This document shows, one piece after another, positions 31-13,230 of a stretch of DNA of 38,285 nt. The notes beneath the pieces are model-generated. The model made no database searches, was not told the origin of the DNA, and worked only from the letters and a program-made list of their open reading frames with translations. This DNA is from a virus (lineage: Duplodnaviria; Heunggongvirae; Uroviricota; Caudoviricetes): IMG/VR virus record IMGVR_UViG_2645727978_000010. One strand, given 5' to 3'. Position 1 is the first letter of the stretch; the number at the start of each line of letters is the position of its first letter. Made by a program: the position numbers and the translations under genes.

Positions 31-1083
31 TCAGGAGCCGATATATTCTGGTTTCATATCTGTCAGTGTCGTTTTATACGCCTCATATAATTCTCCCAGA
101 TGTGGTCGTGCAGCATTCAGCGTATTTTCCAGAGCAATAAATTTTTGTTCTGCTTCTGGATCACCTGATGAAGGCAGGTCATTTATCATCGTCTCAATAC
201 GGGCAATAGCATTGAGACGGTGATGACGCTGAACCACTTTTCCTTTAAGTTCTGTGTAGAGAGCGCCAAGAGTATTTTTATGATCTTCCACTTCCTGGCG
301 AAGTGATGTTGTTTCTCCGGTGCTTTGTGCCTGCTCAATACGTTCACGGAAAGCACTGATCCAGTTTTCCCCGGCATCCTGCTCAATAATTGTTGTTTCA
401 CGTTCCGCACGGCAGGCGGATGTATTTTTATGTTCCTGAACCGGATTAATGATTTTTTCCTGTGGTTCGTCCAGTTCGTCCCGGGTGTACACTCCAAGAA
501 TCACTTCAGGGCAATAAAGGCGCGCCCAGCGTTTCAGTGCCAGATAGGCAAGCTGCTGGCGAGGATCATCGGCCCATAACGTTGAGTTACGTGTTCTGGC
601 CTGCGCCAGAAGTAACTCCAGTACGCGTGGCTTGCTCTCTCCGCGTAGTGTTGCCTGGACGCGAACTCCGATCCCGTTTTCATCGGCCAGCTTCCAGCCA
701 GGTACACGATATTCTTTCCCCTTGTCGTTCTTCCTAATTTCAAATTTCCCGATAATTTTTTCCCACGGCCCGAACCAGTCATATTCAATACGCCCGGTTA
801 GCGGCCCACGAGTACTGATTACGGCATTAACCAGTTGCGCTTCATATCCGAGCACACCATTCACAACGAAAGTTTTCTGAGCTACTGCGTAAGGGTTCAT
901 TTGCCACTGCATCGCCTGCATGGTGATGGCCATGCAGTCTGATGGATTTCCCCGGAGGTGTTCCGGTACAGTAGCCATGCCGGAAGCCATTACCTGGGAA
1001 AATGTCTGAATTGCAGCCAGGGACTGAGGGCTGAAAACCGCAACATTAGAGTTAATATTTTCTTGTTGAGTTAATTCGTTCAT
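31..1083 (-). CDS. recT: RecT/Redbeta-family single-strand annealing recombinase (350 aa)
   Basis: Track ORF; GAGGAAGGA RBS just upstream of ATG (rev-comp of 1084-1100); directly downstream of and co-oriented with recE-like gene; sequence recalls RecT/Bet-type SSAPs; C-terminal ~120 aa is extra relative to the 269-aa K-12 RecT as I recall it. Confidence 0.75.
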   Translation of the reverse strand: MNELTQQENINSNVAVFSPQSLAAIQTFSQVMASGMATVPEHLRGNPSDCMAITMQAMQWQMNPYAVAQKTFVVNGVLGYEAQLVNAVISTRGPLTGRIEYDWFGPWEKIIGKFEIRKNDKGKEYRVPGWKLADENGIGVRVQATLRGESKPRVLELLLAQARTRNSTLWADDPRQQLAYLALKRWARLYCPEVILGVYTRDELDEPQEKIINPVQEHKNTSACRAERETTIIEQDAGENWISAFRERIEQAQSTGETTSLRQEVEDHKNTLGALYTELKGKVVQRHHRLNAIARIETMINDLPSSGDPEAEQKFIALENTLNAARPHLGELYEAYKTTLTDMKPEYIGS

Positions 1084-5080: not shown

Positions 5081-5413
5081 AATTATCTCCATTTTTACAA
5101 ATGAATTTTGTCGATGCGGTGCCTGGTGCCTCCAGGTGACGTTAACCAGTTAACAATTAACGCCGGATAATCCACCCATAACACTGATGCTTTTAACTGT
5201 GCCGCGTGCGCTTAGCCGCATTCACCGCATCACAAAATTCACTTTAAAAAGGGGCGACAGGGCAGCCACGGAGTAGAACTGATGCCGCCAAAGACTACAC
5301 ATAGCAATGTCGTTATTTACAACCGGAGGCGCACTCCCACCATTTAAATTTAACAGACAAGACCGACTCTTTATGAATACCGGAAATGCGCCTTCGTGTT
5401 GTGCGCCTGTCTT

Positions 5414-6153: not shown

Positions 6154-6573
6154 TTACTCCGGTGGGGGATTATCTTTAAGCCTGCCTCTCAAATATTTTT
6201 CTACATACTCATCGATTTCTTTTAGCCGGACTTCAAATAGCTCAATCATTCGTTGTTGTTCTGAGCCCGGTAGCTGGTTAAACAACTCAAGAAGTTTTCG
6301 TTGGGATTCATTTAACCACAATTCAGAAGATTCCTGTTCTCCAAATAGGAGCTCAGGAGGAGATATGCCAAGTGCCTTTCCCAATACGACAGCGTCATGC
6401 ACTCCAACATTTCTGCTGCCCGCCTCATAGTTACCTATACGCGATTGCGTCCATCCGCAGATTTCAGCAAGTTTTCCTTGAGATAAACCAAGCTTCTGCC
6501 TGCGCTCTTTAAGACGCATTGCAATTTTGTCATTGAGCCTACTAGCGGCAATTTTTTCGTTTTCTTTTTCCAT
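6154..6573 (-). CDS. Phage repressor, HTH XRE family (RacR/CI-like), 139 aa
   Basis: Track ORF; AAGGA RBS; clear helix-turn-helix LGLSQGKLAEICGWTQSRIGNYEAG; divergent from a Cro-like gene across an operator-containing intergenic region. Confidence 0.8.
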   Translation of the reverse strand: MEKENEKIAASRLNDKIAMRLKERRQKLGLSQGKLAEICGWTQSRIGNYEAGSRNVGVHDAVVLGKALGISPPELLFGEQESSELWLNESQRKLLELFNQLPGSEQQRMIELFEVRLKEIDEYVEKYLRGRLKDNPPPE

Positions 6574-6584
6574 TGCATCCTTGT

Positions 6585-6599
6585 ATCACGAATCGTGAT
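6585..6599. promoter_or_regulatory. Operator-like perfect palindrome ATCACGA-A-TCGTGAT
   Basis: Perfect 7-1-7 inverted repeat in repressor/cro intergenic region, overlapping the repressor gene RBS. Confidence 0.5.
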
Positions 6600-6620
6600 T
6601 TATATAAAACACAAAACAGC

Positions 6621-6651
6621 TTGACCATATAACACAAGGTGTGTTTAAAAT
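6621..6651 (+). promoter_or_regulatory. Candidate rightward early promoter (TTGACC ... TAAAAT) with embedded operator palindrome AACACA-AGG-TGTGTT (6631-6645)
   Basis: -35 TTGACC 6621-6626, -10-like TAAAAT 6646-6651 (19-bp spacer; alternative TTTAAA with 17 bp); palindrome between them; a further AACACA half-site at 6608-6613. Confidence 0.4.
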
Positions 6652-6669
6652 TGTCATCGGAGGTTTTCA

Positions 6670-6912
6670 ATGAACAAAATTTCAACATATCGAAAACAGC
6701 TTGGGCTGTCTCAAAGACAACTTGCTGTTCAGTTAGGGTGGATACAAAGCCGACTGGCAAATTACGAAGCAAATTTTCGTACCCCTGGACTAGAGGAGTG
6801 CAGAAAAATTGTTTCTACCCTTAATCGGCTTGGCACTCATTGTGGACTTGACGATGTATTCCCCCCAGACGGTAAGCATAGCGAAAACAGCATAGGAGCG
6901 GTTGATTCATGA
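6670..6912 (+). CDS. Cro-like HTH regulator (YdaS-like), 80 aa
   Basis: Track ORF; GGAGG RBS 6659-6663; HTH LGLSQRQLAVQLGWIQSRLANYE; first gene of rightward operon, divergent from repressor. Confidence 0.75.
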   Translation: MNKISTYRKQLGLSQRQLAVQLGWIQSRLANYEANFRTPGLEECRKIVSTLNRLGTHCGLDDVFPPDGKHSENSIGAVDS

Positions 6913-7331
6913 AAATCAGGCATGAGCACATCGAATCAGTGTTGTTAGCCCTGGCAGCCGAAAAAGGGCAGGCGTGGGTCGCTAACGCAATTACTGAAGA
7001 ATATCTGCGCCAGGGGGGCGGCGAATTGCCCCTTGTACCAGGCAAGGACTGGAACAATCAGCAGAATATCTATCACCGTTGGTTGAAAGGTGAAACGAAA
7101 GCGCAAAGGGAAAAAATTCAGAAACTGATCCCTGCGGTTCTGGCAATTCTTCCGCGCGAGCTGCGTCACCGACTCTGCATCTTCGATACCCTGGAACGCC
7201 GTGCATTACTGGCGGCGCAGGAAGCGTTGAGTACGGCAATTGATGCGCATGATGATGCAGTCCAGGCCGTTTACCGGAAAGCACATTTCAGCGGTGGTGG
7301 GTCGCCCGGCGATTCTGTCGTAGTGCATTGA
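6909..7331 (+). CDS. ydaT: YdaT-like protein (140 aa)
   Basis: Track ORF; ATGA overlap with upstream cro-like gene; 140-aa size and sequence recall Rac YdaT. Confidence 0.65.
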   Translation: MKIRHEHIESVLLALAAEKGQAWVANAITEEYLRQGGGELPLVPGKDWNNQQNIYHRWLKGETKAQREKIQKLIPAVLAILPRELRHRLCIFDTLERRALLAAQEALSTAIDAHDDAVQAVYRKAHFSGGGSPGDSVVVH

Positions 7332-7375
7332 TTGAAATTAATCGTGCCGGATTGTTTTGTTCGGTATCAGTTAAA

Positions 7376-7396
7376 TGTAACGCTGCGAGCGTTACA
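7376..7396. repeat. Iteron-like palindrome TGTAACGCT-GCG-AGCGTTACA (copy 1)
   Basis: Perfect 9-bp arms; 13 bp upstream of ydaU-like start codon. Confidence 0.6.
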
Positions 7397-7408
7397 AGGT
7401 GAAAACAA

Positions 7409-8221
7409 ATGGCTTCAAACTGGATAAAGCTCGAGGTTATTACGCCGGATAAGCCGGAAATATTCAGGCTTGCTGAGATTCTGAATATTGATCCAGATGC
7501 CGCATTAGGGAAGGTTATTCGCTTCTGGGCATGGGCGGATCAACAAATGATAGACGGTAATGCAGATTGTAACGCTCGCGGCGTTACAAAAAGTGCAATA
7601 GATCGCATCACTTTTATGGCTGGTTTTGCTGATGCGTTAATTCAGGTTGGATGGCTGGTCGAAAATGACGTTGGGCTTTCTCTACCTAACTTTGAACGTC
7701 ATAACGGAAAAAGCTCTAAAAAACGGGCGGTTACAAACGAGCGAGTTACAAAAATACGCGAACTGAAACGAAAAGGTAACGCTGCCAGCGTTACACAAAC
7801 GGATCAAAAAGCGTTACCAGAGGAAGAGGAAGAGGAAGAGGAAGAGGAAGAGGAAGAGGAAGATCTAAATACTGATCTCCCCCTAAATCCCCCTCGCCAA
7901 AAACGAGCGTCTAAAAAATTCGAGCCGGAGGCTATTGAGCTGCCTGATTGGTTGCCGGAAACACTCTGGCATGAGTGGGTCCGGTTCAGACAGGCATTGC
8001 GAAAACCGATTCGAACGGAGCAGGGCGCTAACGGGGCGATACGGGAACTGGAAAAATTCCGTCAGCAGGGTTTTACACCTGAGCAGGTGATTCGACACAG
8101 CATCGCCAATGAATACCAGGGCTTGTTCGCACCGAAAGGTGTTCGGCCTGAGACGTTGCTCCGACAGGTTAACACCGTCTCGTTGCCGGACAGTGCGATC
8201 CCGCCAGGCTTCAGGGGGTAA
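7409..8221 (+). CDS. YdaU-like phage replication protein (270 aa) with internal poly-Glu tract
   Basis: Track ORF; AAGGTG RBS; immediately upstream of DnaC-like loader (O/P-like arrangement); contains iteron-like palindromes and a 14-Glu run. Confidence 0.6.
   Translation: MASNWIKLEVITPDKPEIFRLAEILNIDPDAALGKVIRFWAWADQQMIDGNADCNARGVTKSAIDRITFMAGFADALIQVGWLVENDVGLSLPNFERHNGKSSKKRAVTNERVTKIRELKRKGNAASVTQTDQKALPEEEEEEEEEEEEEEDLNTDLPLNPPRQKRASKKFEPEAIELPDWLPETLWHEWVRFRQALRKPIRTEQGANGAIRELEKFRQQGFTPEQVIRHSIANEYQGLFAPKGVRPETLLRQVNTVSLPDSAIPPGFRG
7568..7588. repeat. Iteron-like palindrome TGTAACGC-TCGCG-GCGTTACA (copy 2, inside ydaU-like CDS)
   Basis: Perfect 8-bp arms sharing the GTAACGC core with copy 1. 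Confidence 0.6.
7730..7751. repeat. Direct repeat of GTTACAA half-sites (7730-7736 and 7745-7751)
   Basis: Two copies of GTTACAAA 15 bp apart, same core as the palindromes. Confidence 0.45.
7776..7794. repeat. Iteron-like palindrome GTAACGCTG-C-CAGCGTTAC (copy 3, inside ydaU-like CDS)
   Basis: Perfect 9-bp arms; an extra AGCGTTAC half-site follows at 7810-7817. Confidence 0.6.
7820..7861 (+). repeat. Hexanucleotide tandem repeat (GAGGAA)x7 encoding 14 consecutive Glu
   Basis: Seven perfect GAGGAA units, in frame within ydaU-like CDS. Confidence 0.9.
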
Positions 8222-8227
8222 CAGACC

Positions 8228-8974
8228 ATGAAAAATATTGCGACAGGCGGCGTTCTGGAGCGTATCCGCAGACTGACCCCACCACATGTAACCGCCCCAT
8301 TCAGAACGGTTGCGGAGTGGCGCGAGTGGCAACTTGCTGAAGGCCAGAAACGTTGCGAGGAGATCAACCGCCTGAATCGTCAGTTGCGGGTGGAAAAAAT
8401 CCTGAATCGCTCTGGCATCCAGCCGTTGCACCGCAAATGCTCGTTTGCGAATTACCAGGTGCAGAACGAAGGGCAGCGATACGCGTTAAGCCAGGCGAAA
8501 TCCATCGCCGATGAACTGATGACCGGGTGTACAAATTTTGCGTTCAGCGGAAAACCTGGTACCGGGAAGAATCACTTAGCGGCAGCTATCGGGAATCGCC
8601 TGCTGAAAGACGGTCAGACAGTGATTGTGGTTACCGTGGCTGATGTTATGAGCGCCCTGCACGCCAGCTATGACGACGGGCAGTCAGGCGAAAAATTTTT
8701 GCGGGAGCTGTGCGAAGTGGATCTGCTGGTTCTTGATGAAATTGGCATTCAGCGCGAGACGAAAAACGAGCAGGTGGTACTGCACCAGATTATTGATCGA
8801 CGGACAGCGTCGATGCGTAGCGTGGGAATGCTGACAAACCTGAACTATGAGGCCATGAAAACATTGCTCGGCGAGAGGATTATGGATCGCATGACCATGA
8901 ACGGCGGGTGTTGGGTGAATTTTAACTGGGAGAGCTGGCGTCCGAATGTCGTCCAGCCAGGAATTGCGAAGTAA
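8228..8974 (+). CDS. DnaC-like replicative helicase loader (IstB-like AAA+ ATPase; YdaV-like), 248 aa
   Basis: Track ORF; Walker [16 protein letters not shown] and Walker [10 protein letters not shown]; follows the replication-initiator-like gene. Confidence 0.8.
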
Positions 8975-8996
8975 TTTTTACCGGGAGAAAAATTTA

Positions 8997-9758
8997 ATGG
9001 AGACTGTTTTTGACGCACTGAAAGCAATGGGAAAAGCCACGTCGGTAGAGCTGGCTGCGCGACTTGATATCAGTCGTGAAGAAGTGCTGAACGAACTATG
9101 GGAACTGAAAAAGGCTGGTTTTGTTGATAAAAGCGCGTACACCTGGCGTGTGGCTGATAACAACGTTCAGCAGGAACAGCCAGCGCAGGCAGAACTGCCG
9201 GAAGAAACCACCACAGCAACAGTAGCGAAAATCTCAGAGTGCGATTTAACCGCGACGATTGAACAACGCGGACCACAAACGGCTGATGAGCTGGCTACAT
9301 TGTTTGGTACCACATCACGCAAAGTGGCTTCAACGCTGGCAATGGCAATCAGCAAAGGTCGTCTGATTCGCGTAAATCAGGGCGGTAAATTTCGTTACTG
9401 CATACCGGGCGATAATTTACCAGCAGAGCCGAAAGCAGCATCGGTAGCGGAAACTGATGGTAAGGCCTTTCCTCAGCCCGCAGGTGTTGCGTTACCAGTA
9501 CGTGAGGCTGCAACACAGGAAGATATTAAAACAGAAACTGTGGCGGACATTGTGCAGTCGCTGCCATCGTTTACTGAAACGCGAGCGGATGACCTGGTTT
9601 TACCATCGCTGCATATGGCAAACCGCGAACTGCGTCGGGCGAAAAGTCATGTCCAGAAGTGGGAACGAGTCTGTGCTGCGCTGCGGGAACTGAACAAGCA
9701 CCGGGATATTGTTCGACAGATTACTGATTCTTCTCGCTGTGTTGCATCGGAAAAGTGA
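8997..9758 (+). CDS. Hypothetical phage protein (253 aa)
   Basis: Track ORF 8946..9758; start placed at ATG 8997 preceded by GGGAG-type RBS (alternative ATG 8946 overlaps upstream gene and lacks RBS). Confidence 0.5.
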
Positions 9759-10881: not shown

Positions 10882-11460
10882 ATGAGAGACATTGATGTAA
10901 GAAAGGCTGTGCATGCCAAGATTTTGAGAGATCATCATAAAGATCCTGACACCCTAATCATTGATGAGTTTACGATGAATCTGGGGGCTAGCAGAGCTGA
11001 TATAGCAGTGATCAATGGGCTTATACATGGTTATGAGTTGAAGAGCAAAAGTGATAACTTGCTCAGATTACCAGCGCAGGTGCAACATTACTCATCAGTG
11101 ATGGATAAAGTAACGTTGGTTGTCTCTGATTGCCATCTTTATGATGCTTTAAGCATAGTTCCATCATGGTGGGGGATAAAGCAAGTTACGCAAGGTGCAC
11201 GGCAAGGTATCCATTTAAAAACAATTCGAACTAGCAAGTTGAATCCACAAGTGGACAAACTTTCCTTAACAATGCTTCTTTGGAAAGATGAATTGCTTTC
11301 CCTATTAAGTGATGTAGGGGAGCTACAGAATTTGAAAAATAAACCTAAACGCGTCTTATGGTCAAAACTCGCCAATAGTATGGATGTTGGCGAGCTTCGT
11401 GAAGCTGTTCGAGTTAAACTTAAAGCCCGTAAAGAGTGGCGAGTTGCTCAACAACCTTAG
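10882..11460 (+). CDS. Predicted PD-(D/E)xK nuclease-fold protein (192 aa); sce7726-like by recollection
   Basis: Track ORF with ATG start; AT-rich; motif IIDEF...RADIAVINGLIHGYELKSK fits the D...D-x12-ExK restriction-endonuclease-like signature; family assignment not verified. Confidence 0.6.
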   Translation: MRDIDVRKAVHAKILRDHHKDPDTLIIDEFTMNLGASRADIAVINGLIHGYELKSKSDNLLRLPAQVQHYSSVMDKVTLVVSDCHLYDALSIVPSWWGIKQVTQGARQGIHLKTIRTSKLNPQVDKLSLTMLLWKDELLSLLSDVGELQNLKNKPKRVLWSKLANSMDVGELREAVRVKLKARKEWRVAQQP

Positions 11461-12517
11461 TTATGTGATGGTTTTGCCCAATCCTACGCCATACCTCTGG
11501 GCTACCAAATTTATAGTTACCAGAGGGATTGGCTTTGTAGGCTTGATACTCGTTTGCATAATATTCTATGTCTCTATCTCCCGCACAGAATGTAGGCCCT
11601 GAATATTCTCGATGAGCAAGAATATCCTCACTATGTTTACCATATTGTTCATAACCAAAGCGATTAGCTACTCTTCCTCGAAATACCCAAAAGTCATTAT
11701 CTCCAGAGTATCTGACGCTGGCAGATACGCTAGGGAATCGCGTCGAAAGCCTATTAAAGTCGGGGTGCTGTACTCCATAATCACTATAAATCACATTTCT
11801 GGCAAGTTCTTTTCTATTCATTAAACTCTGCCATAAAATCCACTCGATTCGAGGTTGAGAATATAGACCAACAGAAATATCACTGAGATCTGTAGGAAAT
11901 GAACCCCCAGAAAGAATCACTTTTCTGTATTCATTGAGGTGCGCCAGATTGTTTATCAATCCCATTGCCAAAGTATATAGTTCGCCGGAATTAAGTTTAT
12001 CCTCGGTTAACTCATCTCTTAAGTCAATAATTATATCAATATTTGATAAAGGAATTCCCAGATGATTAATGTAATGCGTTATTAATTGTGGGTTAACCAG
12101 ATCTAACGTGGTTAATCTCAAGCATATTTCATTCTGCATTAATTCATCAATCGCTCCTTTATAGTTAGATGGGCGAGTTGGTGAACTGACAGGAATAACT
12201 CTTATCCCCATATCTCTAACTTGATTAACCGCATTTATTATAGGGTAATGATCTTCAGGAGAAATAAAATGCTCTTCAATTAATAATCCATCAATATAAA
12301 CACCTTGCATATCTGAGCAAGATTTTGAGACTTTCTTTCCGAACTCTATAAGAGTCTCGTTATAACTCTTTAAGGCAATACCTGAATCAGGGTCAATTGG
12401 CACTGGTTCAATTTCGAGTAATGGCAAAATTTTTGATTTCTTTTCAATGGATAGCTGCGATAAAGCTGATAACTCAGAACGTTTCGCTTTCAGAATAGGA
12501 ATATATGAAATTGTCAT
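11420..12517 (-). CDS. 365-aa protein of unknown function; 'beta protein'/sce7725-like by recollection
   Basis: Track ORF with ATG start and AAGGT RBS (rev-comp of 12518-12535); AT-rich; convergent with the nuclease-fold gene with 41-bp 3' overlap; N-terminus MTISYIPILKAKRSEL recalls that family. Confidence 0.6.
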   Translation of the reverse strand: MTISYIPILKAKRSELSALSQLSIEKKSKILPLLEIEPVPIDPDSGIALKSYNETLIEFGKKVSKSCSDMQGVYIDGLLIEEHFISPEDHYPIINAVNQVRDMGIRVIPVSSPTRPSNYKGAIDELMQNEICLRLTTLDLVNPQLITHYINHLGIPLSNIDIIIDLRDELTEDKLNSGELYTLAMGLINNLAHLNEYRKVILSGGSFPTDLSDISVGLYSQPRIEWILWQSLMNRKELARNVIYSDYGVQHPDFNRLSTRFPSVSASVRYSGDNDFWVFRGRVANRFGYEQYGKHSEDILAHREYSGPTFCAGDRDIEYYANEYQAYKANPSGNYKFGSPEVWRRIGQNHHITKVVEQLATLYGL

Positions 12518-12898: not shown

Positions 12899-12964
12899 TG
12901 CTGCGGGTGCTTGAGGCTATCTGCCTCAGGCATGAACACCAAAAGGCAGATAGAGAAAAGCCCC

Positions 12965-13027
12965 AGTTAACATTACGCGTCCTACAAGACGCTTAACATT
13001 AATCTGAGGCCCAATCTATGTCTCACA
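12965..13027 (-). ncRNA. Candidate Sok-like antisense RNA (approximate extent)
   Basis: Minus-strand promoter-like TTGCCT (13061-13056) -17 bp- TAACCT (13038-13033) inside the hok leader, reading across the leader ORF start; hairpin GCGTC-n6-GACGC at 12977-12992; ends not determinable. Confidence 0.3.
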
Positions 13028-13074
13028 AATGTAGGTTAGCCTCTTACGTGCCGAAAGGCAAGGAGAAGCAGGCT

Positions 13075-13230
13075 ATGAAGCAGCAAAAGGCGATGTTAAT
13101 CGCCCTGATCGTCATCTGTTTAACCGTCATAGTGACGGCACTGGTAACGAGGAAAGACCTCTGCGAGGTACGAATCCGAACCGGCCAGACGGAGGTTGCT
13201 GTCTTCGTGGACTACGAATCTGAGAAGTAA
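13075..13230 (+). CDS. hok: Hok/Gef-family type I toxin (51 aa; RelF/HokD-like)
   Basis: AAGGAGAAG RBS; product MKQQKAMLIALIVICLTVIVTALVTRKDLCEVRIRTGQTEVAVFVDYESEK has single TM helix plus conserved Cys, matching my recollection of HokD/RelF; the in-frame upstream extension (track ORF 13018..13230) occupies the mok position. Confidence 0.85.
   Translation: MKQQKAMLIALIVICLTVIVTALVTRKDLCEVRIRTGQTEVAVFVDYESEK

What the first reader, a model, noticed from the sequence alone, without database searches (positions are those of the whole stretch)
7376..7817. Iteron-like palindromes sharing a GTAACGC core in and just upstream of the ydaU-like replication gene - putative origin
Three perfect palindromes (7376-7396, 7568-7588, 7776-7794) plus GTTACAA half-sites (7730-7736, 7745-7751, 7810-7817) are spaced about 190-210 bp apart. 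Two lie inside the coding sequence, as lambda ori iterons lie inside gene O. This suggests an origin or autoregulatory sites bound by the encoded initiator.
Basis: seen in the sequence. Interest (0 to 1): 0.5.

Follow-up and report, generated by a model that had tools for sequence, protein, structure and literature searches.

The report
Probable replication origin inside initiator gene
The palindromes are real and mark what is most likely the replication origin of a Rac-like E. coli prophage: binding sites for the phage's own initiator, written into the initiator's gene next to an all-purine tract, in a layout shared by thousands of prophages across bacterial phyla.

Summary
GTAACGC-N5-GCGTTAC occurs three times in the window (0.11 expected), all within 7376-7794, and GCGTTAC half-sites lie nearby. 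The gene is only half ydaU-like. Its C-terminal DnaT-like domain matches K-12 YdaU, but its N-terminal domain is an unrelated, predicted winged-helix domain.

Across about 85 distant relatives the same palindrome sits at the same two places in the gene (+149 and +350). At +350 it is part of a 12-nt-phased half-site array that abuts a conserved purine tract, (AGAGAAG)n, which is (GAGGAA)7.5 here. Four results point to DNA-level selection:
- Synonymous codon positions inside the palindrome are frozen.
- The arms are invariant while the spacers vary.
- In some relatives the site is read in another frame.
- Lineages with a changed half-site (GTCACG and others) changed every copy together, along with protein residue 113 (V to K/Q/N).

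In the reverse test, 100 of 120 viral contigs carrying the palindrome encode this protein family.

The layout copies lambda ori inside gene O, without protein homology. The best reading is initiator boxes of an intragenic origin (0.7). This is a new member of a known kind. Binding and origin activity remain untested.

The parts
7376..7396 (.). Site 0: palindrome TGTAACGCT-GCG-AGCGTTACA. It lies between the ydaT-like stop (7331) and the initiator ATG (7409) and abuts the Shine-Dalgarno sequence AGGTGA (7397-7402).
   Evidence: It is present only in the Rac-like and Pantoea sub-lineage and accounts for the 16 palindromes in the -50 bin of the reverse test. Among 65 distinct close relatives the arms never vary while the spacer does.
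7557..7564 (+). Degenerate extra left half-site GGTAATGC, 12 nt upstream of site 1. It was created by a 12-nt in-frame insertion (4 extra residues, DCNA) that relatives lack.
7567..7589 (.). Site 1: palindrome TTGTAACGC-TCGCG-GCGTTACAA inside the coding sequence (codons 54-60). It falls in a low-confidence loop between helix 2 and helix 3 of the N-domain.
   Evidence: The homologous position (+149) holds a 7-N5-7 palindrome with at least 6 of 7 pairs in 77 of 85 distant loci. Third codon bases there are fixed.
7727..7751 (+). Two same-orientation half-sites, GCGGTTACAA (7727-7736) and GCGAGTTACAA (7741-7751). They form the upstream part of the linker array.
   Evidence: 14-nt period, 2.2 copies.
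7776..7794 (.). Site 2: palindrome GTAACGCT-GCC-AGCGTTAC in the part of the gene that encodes the disordered linker.
   Evidence: It is the family-wide half-site cluster at +300..+450, with 8-41 half-sites per kb against about 0.3 per kb background.
7810..7818 (+). Terminal half-site AGCGTTACC, which abuts the purine tract. This is the canonical family junction GCGTTACC(T)|AGAG...
   Evidence: CGTTAC starts 8 nt (32 loci) or 7 nt (9 loci) before the tract in 41 of 63 loci.
7819..7863 (+). All-purine tract (AGAGGA)x7.5 on the coding strand, 45 nt, encoding poly-Glu. It is the window's version of the family's AGAGAAGAGAAGAGAAGAGAAGA and is the proposed unwinding or loading element.
   Evidence: The homologous tract has a median length of 20 nt. 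It is at least 15 nt in 53 of 86 loci and is the longest purine or pyrimidine run of the locus in 61 of 86. Copy number varies among close relatives.
7862..7893 (+). GATC-TAAATACT-GATC-T-CCCCC-TAAAT-CCCCC block. It contains two Dam sites, a short AT-rich stretch and two C-runs. Homology to K-12 Rac ydaU begins here, so this is the mosaic joint.
7409..8221 (+). Initiator gene (270 aa). It comprises an N-terminal predicted winged-helix domain (aa 1-100), a basic helix (aa 101-122), a disordered linker (aa 123-177) and a DnaT-like C-terminal domain (aa 178-270).
8228..8974 (+). ydaV-like DnaC/IstB-type AAA+ helicase loader, the presumed partner of the initiator's C-domain.
   Evidence: Pfam IstB_IS21 and Bac_DnaA. 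NCBIfam PRK12377 at 508 bits. PHROG 50.

Best explanation
The palindromes are recognition boxes for the N-terminal winged-helix domain of the protein encoded by the same gene (7409-8221). Together with the adjoining purine tract they form the replication origin of this Rac-like prophage, the functional counterpart of Rac oriJ and of lambda ori.

Proposed mechanism:
1. Initiator dimers bind GTAACGC-N5-GCGTTAC. Further subunits bind the flanking half-sites, which in the family stand in 12-nt register.
2. The array at 7727-7818 ends exactly at a 45-nt purine tract (7819-7863), followed by a GATC/AT/C-run block. The duplex is opened there.
3. The initiator's DnaT-like C-terminal domain, with the DnaC-like YdaV encoded next door, brings in host DnaB.
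4. The two outlying palindromes, site 1 (7567-7589) and site 0 (7376-7396), lie about 200 and 400 nt upstream. They probably act as auxiliary sites, either looping to the core or damping transcription and translation of the initiator.

Shown here: the sequence anatomy, DNA-level purifying selection on the boxes and tract, exclusive linkage of the box to this protein family, concerted change of all boxes with a protein residue, and the predicted folds.

Inferred: binding itself, the place of unwinding, helicase recruitment, and the role of sites 0 and 1.
For: Statistics in the window: 3 palindromes against 0.11 expected, and none elsewhere in the window.

Conservation:
- Phages and prophages of Enterobacterales, Pseudomonas, Xanthomonas, Ralstonia, Planctomycetota and Verrucomicrobiota have N-domains only 40-70% identical to the window's. 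They carry the same palindrome at +149 and around +350 of the gene.
- Half-site density is 14-41 per kb at those two places, against about 0.3 per kb in 4 kb of flanks.
- A 7-N5-7 palindrome with at least 6 of 7 pairs is present in 77 of 85 loci at site 1, against 16.5% of control windows.

Selection acts on DNA, not on the peptide:
- At conserved four-fold codons inside the box the third base is T in 95% (Gly50), 87% (Ala) and 90% (Val59). At most other conserved four-fold codons of the N-domain it is T in 4-41%; two exceptions are listed under Noticed in passing.
- TL-2011b-type genes carry site 2 in a different reading frame (VTPTAL instead of GNAxxVT).
- The arms are invariant and the spacers variable among 65 close relatives. 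There are 57 distinct spacers in 129 sites.

Architecture: GTAACG starts at -56, -44 and -32, and CGTTAC at -19 and -8, relative to the purine tract. This is a 12-nt register. The tract AGAGAAGAGAAGAGAAGAGAAGA is near-identical in 55-68% GC hosts and uses AGA for all 104 Arg codons and never AGG.

Specificity covaries with the protein:
- Loci with GTCACG, GTGACG, GTTGCG, GTAGACG or GTCCGC boxes changed all copies at both sites.
- Residue 113 of the basic helix is Val in 69 of 72 GTAACG loci and Lys, Gln or Asn in 10 of 10 others. Fisher p is 1.3e-10, not corrected for phylogeny.

Linkage:
- 100 of 120 viral stretches with the exact palindrome encode this family.
- Neighbours and partners vary. 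Upstream genes are YdaT, a methylase or KilAC. Partners are DnaC-like, lambda-P-like or DnaB-like.

Folds:
- The C-domain matches DnaT.
- Sites 1 and 2 fall in a loop and in the disordered linker, where the protein tolerates constraint.

Analogy and modularity:
- Lambda's annotated iterons lie at +349..+433 of gene O and are followed by the purine run ACAAAAGAAAAAAGAAAAGA.
- K-12 Rac YdaU has a different N-domain, lacks these boxes and has its own TGTTCAAACA repeats at the same place.
Against: - No experiment shows binding, unwinding or autonomous replication for any member of this family. None was found in the searchable literature.
- The window's purine tract is not AT-rich (47-50% GC), unlike classical unwinding elements.
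- Sites 0 and 1 are 200-400 nt from the core, and the origin model does not require them.
- No DnaA boxes lie between 6321 and 9121. Lambda-type origins do not need them.
Confidence: 0.7

Rival explanations
1. The boxes are operators only. The initiator, or another regulator, binds them to repress or road-block transcription or translation of its own gene, and the origin lies elsewhere.
For: Site 0 sits immediately before the Shine-Dalgarno sequence. Sites inside the gene could block elongating RNA polymerase. Many plasmid initiators autoregulate through inverted repeats of their iteron sequence (established knowledge of RepA and pi-type systems, recalled and not tested here).
Against: - No promoter-like site lies in 7332-7408 or anywhere within the gene.
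- In most relatives there is no site upstream of the gene.
- The gene sits mid-operon behind unrelated genes.
- This model does not explain the phased multi-copy array fixed against a conserved purine tract.
Confidence: 0.15
2. The palindromes act as mRNA hairpins that control stability, RNase processing or translation of the initiator message.
For: Each palindrome folds into a stable RNA hairpin of -12.6 to -15.9 kcal/mol, with z-scores of -3.3 to -4.1. The site 0 fold extends into the Shine-Dalgarno region.
Against: - The arm sequence itself, not just its pairing, is invariant across phyla.
- Only 1 of 72 arm mismatches is of the G-U type. Mismatches sit at the outer and inner ends of the arm, never in the TAACG core.
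- Isolated half-sites in 12-nt register cannot form hairpins.
- Both sites of a locus always carry the same variant sequence.
Confidence: 0.04
3. The DNA repeats are a by-product of a repeated peptide (GNAxxVT) that the protein needs, or of recent horizontal transfer of a gene segment.
For: In the window, sites 1 and 2 are read in the same frame and give NARGVT and NAASVT.
Against: - Synonymous positions are frozen only inside the boxes.
- Site 2 is read in another frame in TL-2011b-type genes.
- Site 0 is non-coding.
- Conservation is confined to 7-mers with free spacers, so it is not a transferred block.
- The peptides lie in a low-confidence loop and a disordered linker.
Confidence: 0.02
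4. The boxes are bound by a different protein, such as the YdaT/CII-like regulator, the prophage repressor or a host factor. Alternatively they serve as joints for modular recombination.
For: The ydaT-like gene lies directly upstream. The homology break with K-12 Rac falls at the end of the purine tract.
Against: - YdaT of CP-933P recognises TTGATT-N6-AATCAA (PMC9986795).
- Rac YdaT sites map to the racR-ydaS intergenic region and the start of ydaT (PMC11879457).
- The repressor-side inverted repeats at 6595-6651 have an unrelated sequence.
- The boxes travel with the N-domain into phages that lack YdaT and into hosts of other phyla, which rules out a host-specific factor.
Confidence: 0.04

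Closest known systems
Bacteriophage lambda ori inside gene O (lambdoid O/P replication module)
   Same: - The origin is embedded in the initiator's own gene, in the part that encodes the inter-domain linker.
- The initiator boxes have dyad symmetry. Lambda's four iterons lie at +349..+433 of O, and here the boxes lie at +319..+410.
- The boxes are followed directly by a purine run on the coding strand (lambda ACAAAAGAAAAAAGAAAAGA at about +451, here +411..+455).
- The initiator has two domains, and the next gene encodes the helicase-loading partner.
- The specificity module (N-domain plus boxes) is exchangeable between phages.
   Different: - There is no sequence similarity to O.
- The C-domain is DnaT-like and the partner is DnaC-like rather than P.
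- The boxes are 7-N5-7 with 12-nt-phased half-sites, instead of four 18-19-bp iterons at 20-24-bp spacing.
- Extra palindromes lie about 200 and 400 nt upstream.
- The tract is GA-rich, not AT-rich, in this window.
oriJ / ydaU-ydaV replication region of the K-12 Rac prophage
   Same: - The genomic slot is the same: repressor, cro-like gene, ydaT, initiator, ydaV.
- The initiator C-domain is 73% identical, and the GATC..CCCCCTAAATCCCCC block is shared.
- Rac is reported to possess an origin named oriJ (PMC3945230).
   Different: - K-12 YdaU has a DUF1376 N-domain with no similarity to the window's.
- K-12 has no GTAACGC boxes. It has its own TGTTCAAACA repeats at +392..+459.
- I could not read the papers that mapped oriJ, so its fine structure is not compared here.
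Iteron origins of plasmids with winged-helix Rep initiators (pPS10 RepA, R6K pi, F RepE, RK2 TrfA)
   Same: A winged-helix initiator binds repeated boxes next to an unwinding element. Inverted copies of the box are often used for autoregulation (recalled knowledge).
   Different: Plasmid iterons are tandem direct repeats of 17-22 bp lying outside the rep gene. Here the basic unit is an inverted pair with a 12-nt half-site register inside the coding sequence. No homology to those Rep families was detected.
DnaT of the PriA-dependent replication-restart primosome
   Same: The initiator's C-domain (aa 178-270) matches DnaT's C-terminal ssDNA-binding domain (2ru8 at E 9.7e-5, 9zbt at E 3.3e-4). 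A DnaC-like loader is encoded alongside.
   Different: DnaT has no sequence-specific dsDNA-binding domain and acts at forks and D-loops through PriA and PriB. Here the domain is fused to an origin-specific winged-helix domain.

Membership tests
Lambda-type intragenic phage origin | Repeated initiator-recognition boxes lie inside the initiator's own coding sequence, in the inter-domain linker. | tested here: met
   The boxes lie at +319..+410 of the gene, in a region modelled as disordered. Lambda's iterons lie at +349..+433 of O. Binding itself was not tested.
Lambda-type intragenic phage origin | An AT-rich, strand-asymmetric unwinding tract lies directly downstream of the boxes. | tested here: inconclusive
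   A 45-nt all-purine tract abuts the last box, as in lambda. In this window it is 47-50% GC. Family relatives carry AGAGAAG repeats followed by a short AT-rich stretch.
Lambda-type intragenic phage origin | The initiator is homologous to lambda O. | tested here: not met
   BLASTP against lambda O gives a best E of 2.0. Only the PHROG 'O-like' family 678 matches, on residues 96-244.
Lambda-type intragenic phage origin | The fragment supports initiator-dependent autonomous replication. | not testable with these tools
   This needs a plasmid replication assay.
YdaU (DUF1376) / Rac oriJ module | The initiator has an N-terminal DUF1376 domain. | tested here: not met
   There is no Pfam hit on the N-domain. 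There is no similarity to K-12 YdaU before residue 129.
YdaU (DUF1376) / Rac oriJ module | A YdaU-type C-terminal domain is followed by the ydaV helicase-loader gene. | tested here: met
   Identity is 73% over residues 129-270. The ydaV-like gene lies at 8228-8974.
Plasmid-type iteron origin | Tandem direct repeats of 17-22 bp lie outside the rep gene. | tested here: not met
   The units are inverted pairs plus 12-nt-phased half-sites inside the gene. The only direct repeat is a 14-nt unit in 2.2 copies.
Autoregulatory operator | The site overlaps the promoter of the regulated gene. | tested here: not met
   The only sigma-70-like match in 6500-8300 is at 6651-6680, the cro-side promoter region.
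Intrinsic terminator or structured mRNA element | A stem is followed by a U-run, or pairing is kept through compensatory and G-U changes while the sequence drifts. | tested here: not met
   There is no U-run on the + strand. The single minus-strand terminator-like match (site 2) is below the chance expectation of 2.2. One of 72 mismatches is of the G-U type, and the core sequence is invariant. No Rfam family matches here.
Winged-helix DNA-binding domain (initiator N-domain) | The fold is helix-turn-helix plus a beta-hairpin wing. | tested here: met

The most novel reading that the evidence does not exclude
The conserved coding-strand purine tract may not be a passive unwinding element. It may be the site of a transcript-derived R-loop, because purine-rich RNA on a pyrimidine DNA strand forms the most stable hybrids. 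Alternatively it may be a sequence-specific single-strand element. In either case the initiator, anchored on the adjacent 12-nt-phased boxes, hands it to its DnaT-like domain and the DnaC-like loader. That would be an origin-targeted version of the PriA/DnaT restart primosome, shared by thousands of prophages across phyla. The distal palindromes about 200 and 400 nt upstream would loop onto the core to gate firing. Such a mechanism would also give a physical rationale for the transcriptional activation long known at lambda ori.
Probability: 0.2. Interest if true: 0.75.

Novelty: new member of a known kind. Interest (0 to 1): 0.5.

Why it matters
- It gives a base-pair-level, testable definition of the origin for a very large family of phage initiators. 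At least 4,890 database proteins belong to it. It is present in about 800 of 5,426 complete E. coli genomes and in functional phages such as vB_EcoS-673R7. The N-domain of this family has no Pfam or NCBIfam model.
- It shows how tightly an origin can be written into a protein-coding sequence: frozen synonymous sites, a box-imposed peptide, and a poly-Glu/REEKRRE linker imposed by a purine tract.
- It identifies a candidate recognition code (residue 113 against the third base of the box) that could be used to predict replicon specificity and incompatibility among prophages.
- For annotation, the box plus tract is a simple signature that locates the origin in such prophages.

Tried and rejected
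- Literature. A whole-word search for 'oriJ' returned only papers citing an author named Orij. The key oriJ plasmid paper (Potrykus et al. 2000) is not held. Searching for the exact box and tract sequences returned only Drosophila satellite papers. A search on DnaT, phage, initiator and iterons found nothing about this family.
- Homologue retrieval. The first related-loci scan on viral contigs returned only relatives at least 88% identical, which were useless for covariation. They were reused for the close-relative variability map. The first protein search with the N-domain returned mostly fragments.
- Structure. Foldseek with the full-length model against the PDB gave no match at E of 0.001 or better. 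A profile search of the PDB with the N-domain alignment found nothing.
- DnaA boxes. None lie near the element.
- Promoter at site 0. None was found.
- Minus-strand terminator at site 2. There is one match, below the chance level.
- YdaT as the binder. Rejected, because its published sites differ and the boxes occur without it.
- Arg codon usage in the tract. The AGA count is partly circular, because a purine run can only hold AGA or AGG. Only the complete absence of AGG is informative.
- K-12 repeat TGTTCAAACA. It is not significant as a locus-wide count, at 5 matches against 3.9 expected. Only the clustering of 4 matches within 70 nt is suggestive.
Full report
**1. The observation.**

Reading 6800-9200 confirms three palindromes:
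- TGTAACGCT-GCG-AGCGTTACA at 7376-7396.
- TTGTAACGC-TCGCG-GCGTTACAA at 7567-7589.
- GTAACGCT-GCC-AGCGTTAC at 7776-7794.

The repeat finder groups them as one family with spacings of 192 and 207 nt. The pattern GTAACGC-N5-GCGTTAC, with up to two mismatches allowed, occurs 3 times in the window against 0.11 expected. No shuffle reached 3, and there is no further copy in 38 kb. Seven of the 12 GTAACGC heptamers in the window lie in 7377-7817.

The half-sites GCGGTTACAA (7727-7736) and GCGAGTTACAA (7741-7751) are present. The 'half-site' at 7810-7817 reads AGCGTTAC(C). A degenerate left arm, GGTAATGC (7557-7564), lies exactly 12 nt before site 1.

**2. Context.**

The region is the immunity and replication block of a Rac-like lambdoid prophage of E. 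coli. It is 99.6% identical to a prophage of O55:H7 strain DEC5E. The genes in order are:
- an HTH repressor (6154-6573, minus strand);
- a cro-like HTH protein (6670-6912);
- a YdaT/CII-like protein (6909-7331);
- the initiator (7409-8221);
- a DnaC/IstB-like ATPase, YdaV (8228-8974);
- DUF1627 and DUF977 proteins.

The initiator matches PHROG 2509 'replication initiation protein' over its full length (E 5.6e-91) but matches no Pfam or NCBIfam family.

Compared with K-12 Rac YdaU it is a mosaic. Residues 129-270 are 73% identical, while residues 1-128 show no similarity. K-12's N-domain is DUF1376. DNA homology with K-12 starts exactly at the 3' end of the purine tract, at GATCTAAA...CCCCCTAAATCCCCC. 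K-12 ydaU has none of the GTAACGC palindromes.

**3. Comparative evidence: the boxes are conserved as DNA.**

A tblastn search with the N-domain found 59 phage records, at 33-96% identity. They include TL-2011b, Xanthomonas CP2, Xylella Usme, Pseudomonas VW-6S, Ralstonia Raharianne and Salmonella epsilon15. A species-level genome scan gave 80 loci from Enterobacterales, Pseudomonas, Burkholderiales, Planctomycetota, Verrucomicrobiota and others.

- **Position.** In almost all of them the same 19-bp palindrome lies at +149 of the gene, and one or more copies lie at +340..+385.
- **Density.** Half-site density is 14-21 per kb at +100..+200 and 8-41 per kb at +300..+400. It is about 0.3 per kb across 2 kb of flank on either side.
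- **Pairing.** A 7-N5-7 element with at least 6 of 7 pairs is found at site 1 in 77 of 85 loci and in the site 2 region in 62 of 85. The figure for control windows from the same loci is 16.5%.
- **Synonymous positions.** The third base of conserved four-fold codons is T in 95%, 87% and 90% of genes at the three box codons (GGT, GCT, GTT). At most other conserved four-fold codons of the N-domain it is T in only 4-41%; the exceptions are Val70 (95%) and Gly72 (51%). This holds even though most hosts are 55-68% GC.
- **Reading frame.** In TL-2011b-type genes site 2 is read in another frame, giving V-T-P-T-A-L instead of G-N-A-x-x-V-T.
- **Close relatives.** Among 65 distinct close relatives of the window, the arms of sites 0 and 1 never vary while their spacers do.
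- **Spacers.** Over 129 sites there are 57 different spacers.

So the DNA sequence is under selection, and the peptide is not. The peptide GNAxxVT is a consequence of the box. The AlphaFold models place site 1 in a low-confidence loop (residues 49-60, where the window has a 4-residue insertion). They place site 2 in the disordered linker, which is where a protein can afford such a constraint.

**4. The core array and the purine tract.**

I aligned the loci on the longest purine run of the linker-coding part. GTAACG then starts at -56, -44 and -32, and CGTTAC at -19 and -8. These are forward and reverse half-sites in a strict 12-nt register, and the last one abuts the tract as GCGTTACC(T)|AGAG....

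The tract is AGAGAAGAGAAGAGAAGAGAAGA with little variation, in hosts ranging from Vibrio to Xanthomonas:
- Its median length is 20 nt.
- It is at least 15 nt in 53 of 86 loci.
- It is the longest purine or pyrimidine run of the locus in 61 of 86.
- Its Arg codons are AGA 104 times and AGG never. Elsewhere in the same genes AGG outnumbers AGA 102 to 46.

In the window and its enterobacterial relatives the tract is (AGAGGA)n. The window has 7.5 copies at 7819-7863, and copy number varies among near-identical prophages.

The window's own array consists of:
- two reverse half-sites (7727-7751);
- the site 2 palindrome (7776-7794);
- the terminal reverse half-site (7810-7818), flush against the tract.

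The 12-nt insertion at site 1 adds a half-site in the same 12-nt register.

**5. Who binds.**

The only gene that always accompanies the boxes is the one that contains them. Upstream neighbours differ: YdaT, a C5-methylase, a KilAC antirepressor or small ORFs. The downstream partner also differs: DnaC-like, lambda-P-like or DnaB-like.

In the reverse test I scanned IMG/VR for the exact palindrome and took the first 120 stretches returned:
- 100 of them encode the N-domain family.
- 165 of 187 palindromes lie at -50, +125..175 or +325..425 from the gene start.
- Several of the 20 remaining stretches have the site at a contig end.

Lineages with a different half-site changed every copy at both sites together, while the purine tract stayed:
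- GTCACG in L121, L157, L171, L175 and L162.
- GTGACG in L172.
- GTTGCG in L132.
- GTAGACG in phage Raharianne.
- GTCCGC in epsilon15.

These changes track the protein. Residue 113, on the basic helix 101-122, is Val in 69 of 72 GTAACG-type proteins and Lys, Gln or Asn in all 10 others. Residue 109 is Thr in the typical class and varied in the others. Fisher p is 1.3e-10 without phylogenetic correction.

YdaT is excluded as the binder. The CP-933P protein recognises TTGATT-N6-AATCAA (PMC9986795). Rac YdaT footprints lie in the racR-ydaS intergenic region and at the start of ydaT (PMC11879457).

**6. Why an origin rather than an operator or an RNA structure.**

The layout matches lambda ori point for point.
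- Lambda's four annotated iterons lie at +349..+433 of gene O and are followed by the purine run ACAAAAGAAAAAAGAAAAGA.
- Here the boxes lie at +319..+410 and the tract at +411..+455.
- In both cases the element occupies the linker between a DNA-binding N-domain and a C-domain that deals with the helicase loader encoded next.

The window's C-domain matches the ssDNA-binding C-domain of primosomal protein DnaT (2ru8, E 9.7e-5). There is no protein similarity to O, so this is analogy and not membership.

K-12 Rac is reported to possess an origin, oriJ (PMC3945230). Its initiator has a different N-domain and, at the same place in its gene, a different set of repeats: TGTTCAAACA at +392, +425 and +448 or so. 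An AT-rich purine stretch and the shared C-run block follow them. This is the pattern expected if the N-domain and its cognate boxes are exchanged as one specificity module, as in lambdoid O/ori.

Against an operator role:
- No promoter-like sequence lies near any box.
- Most relatives have no box upstream of the gene.

Against an RNA role:
- The hairpins would be stable, at -12.6 to -15.9 kcal/mol.
- However, the arm sequence is conserved rather than only its pairing.
- Only 1 of 72 arm mismatches is of the G-U type.
- Lone half-sites belong to the array.
- No Rfam family matches the region.

For site 0 alone an added regulatory role cannot be excluded, whether through DNA or RNA. It touches the Shine-Dalgarno sequence and exists only in the Rac-like and Pantoea lineage.

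**7. What remains uncertain.**

- Nothing here shows binding, opening or replication.
- The window's tract is GA-rich and not AT-rich, so how the duplex opens is unclear. Possibilities are easy melting, a triplex-prone mirror repeat, a stable purine-RNA R-loop formed by transcription through the gene, or sequence-specific single-strand capture by the DnaT-like domain.
- The function of the universally conserved site 1, about 200 nt upstream of the core, is unexplained by a minimal origin model. So is the function of the lineage-specific site 0. Looping or autoregulation are guesses.

**8. Verdict.**

The element is most probably the replication origin of this prophage (confidence 0.7). It is built from boxes for the gene's own winged-helix N-domain and a conserved purine tract.

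The kind, an origin inside the initiator gene, is classical. This initiator family, its GTAACGC-N5-GCGTTAC box, the 12-nt register and the cross-phylum purine tract are not described in the literature I could search. I rate it a new member of a known kind, with interest 0.5.

Noticed in passing
window 7819-7863, also L008 and L009: The (AGAGGA)n purine tract, which encodes poly-Glu, is a length-polymorphic microsatellite. The window has 7.5 copies, but near-identical prophages and phages have 3-4 (for example GAGGAAGAGGAAGAGGAAGAT in L008). The initiator's linker length and the putative unwinding element therefore vary between strains.
   Followed up: partly
window 7860-7895 / L002 4615-4650: The mosaic joint with K-12 Rac ydaU falls exactly at the 3' end of the purine tract. 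Upstream of it the two genes are unrelated. Downstream they are about 75-90% identical, starting with GATCTAAA(T/A)AC(T/A)GATC(T/C)CCCCCTAAATCCCCC, which holds two Dam sites. The origin core seems to double as a recombination joint between specificity modules.
   Followed up: partly
window 7733-7747 (codons 109 and 113); alignment: Residues T109 and V113 of the basic helix covary with the third base of the half-site. V113 goes with GTAACG, and K, Q or N with GTCACG, GTGACG and others. They are candidate base-contacting residues. In the window these same codons are themselves part of the two GTTACAA half-sites.
   Followed up: partly
family codons 69-70 (window 7613-7618); L014 about 1695-1702: A further DNA-level constraint appears downstream of site 1. 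The conserved 'GGC GTT' (Val third base T in 95% of genes) looks like another GCGTTA half-site about 36-48 nt after the palindrome in the Pseudomonas-type genes. The window itself lacks it.
   Followed up: no
window 7345-7366; L009 1437-1458: A second inverted repeat, TACCGAAC-TGTTTT-GTTCGGTA, lies between the ydaT-like stop and site 0 in phage vB_EcoS-673R7. It is imperfect in the window (GCCGGATTGTTTTGTTCGGTA), and its left arm is a hotspot of variation among close relatives.
   Followed up: no
L002 4511-4578 (K-12 Rac ydaU): K-12 ydaU carries its own cluster of TGTTCAAACA boxes (two direct copies and one palindromic pair) in the linker-coding part. An AT-rich purine stretch follows. This is a plausible fine-scale location for oriJ.
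   Followed up: partly
window 5252-5303 (minus strand): A DicF antisense sRNA lies here (Rfam RF00039, 55 bits, above the gathering score), upstream of the immunity region.
   Followed up: no
window 12905-13080: A sok antitoxin RNA of a hok/sok type I toxin-antitoxin locus lies here (Rfam RF01794, 122 bits).
   Followed up: no
window 10882-12517, compared with L001 8385-10342: The slot between the DUF977 gene and hok/sok holds different cargo in different strains. The window has a 192-aa ORF (10882-11460, +) and a convergent 365-aa ORF (11420-12517, -). Strain COL60J has an ATP-binding protein plus a STAS-like protein in the same slot. This may be a variable accessory or defence island.
   Followed up: no
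window 7776-7794 (minus strand): Read on the minus strand, site 2 followed by CTTTTCGTTT scores as a terminator-like site. The count is below chance (1 found against 2.2 expected). The T-run comes from the Lys codons that precede the box in many relatives.
   Followed up: partly
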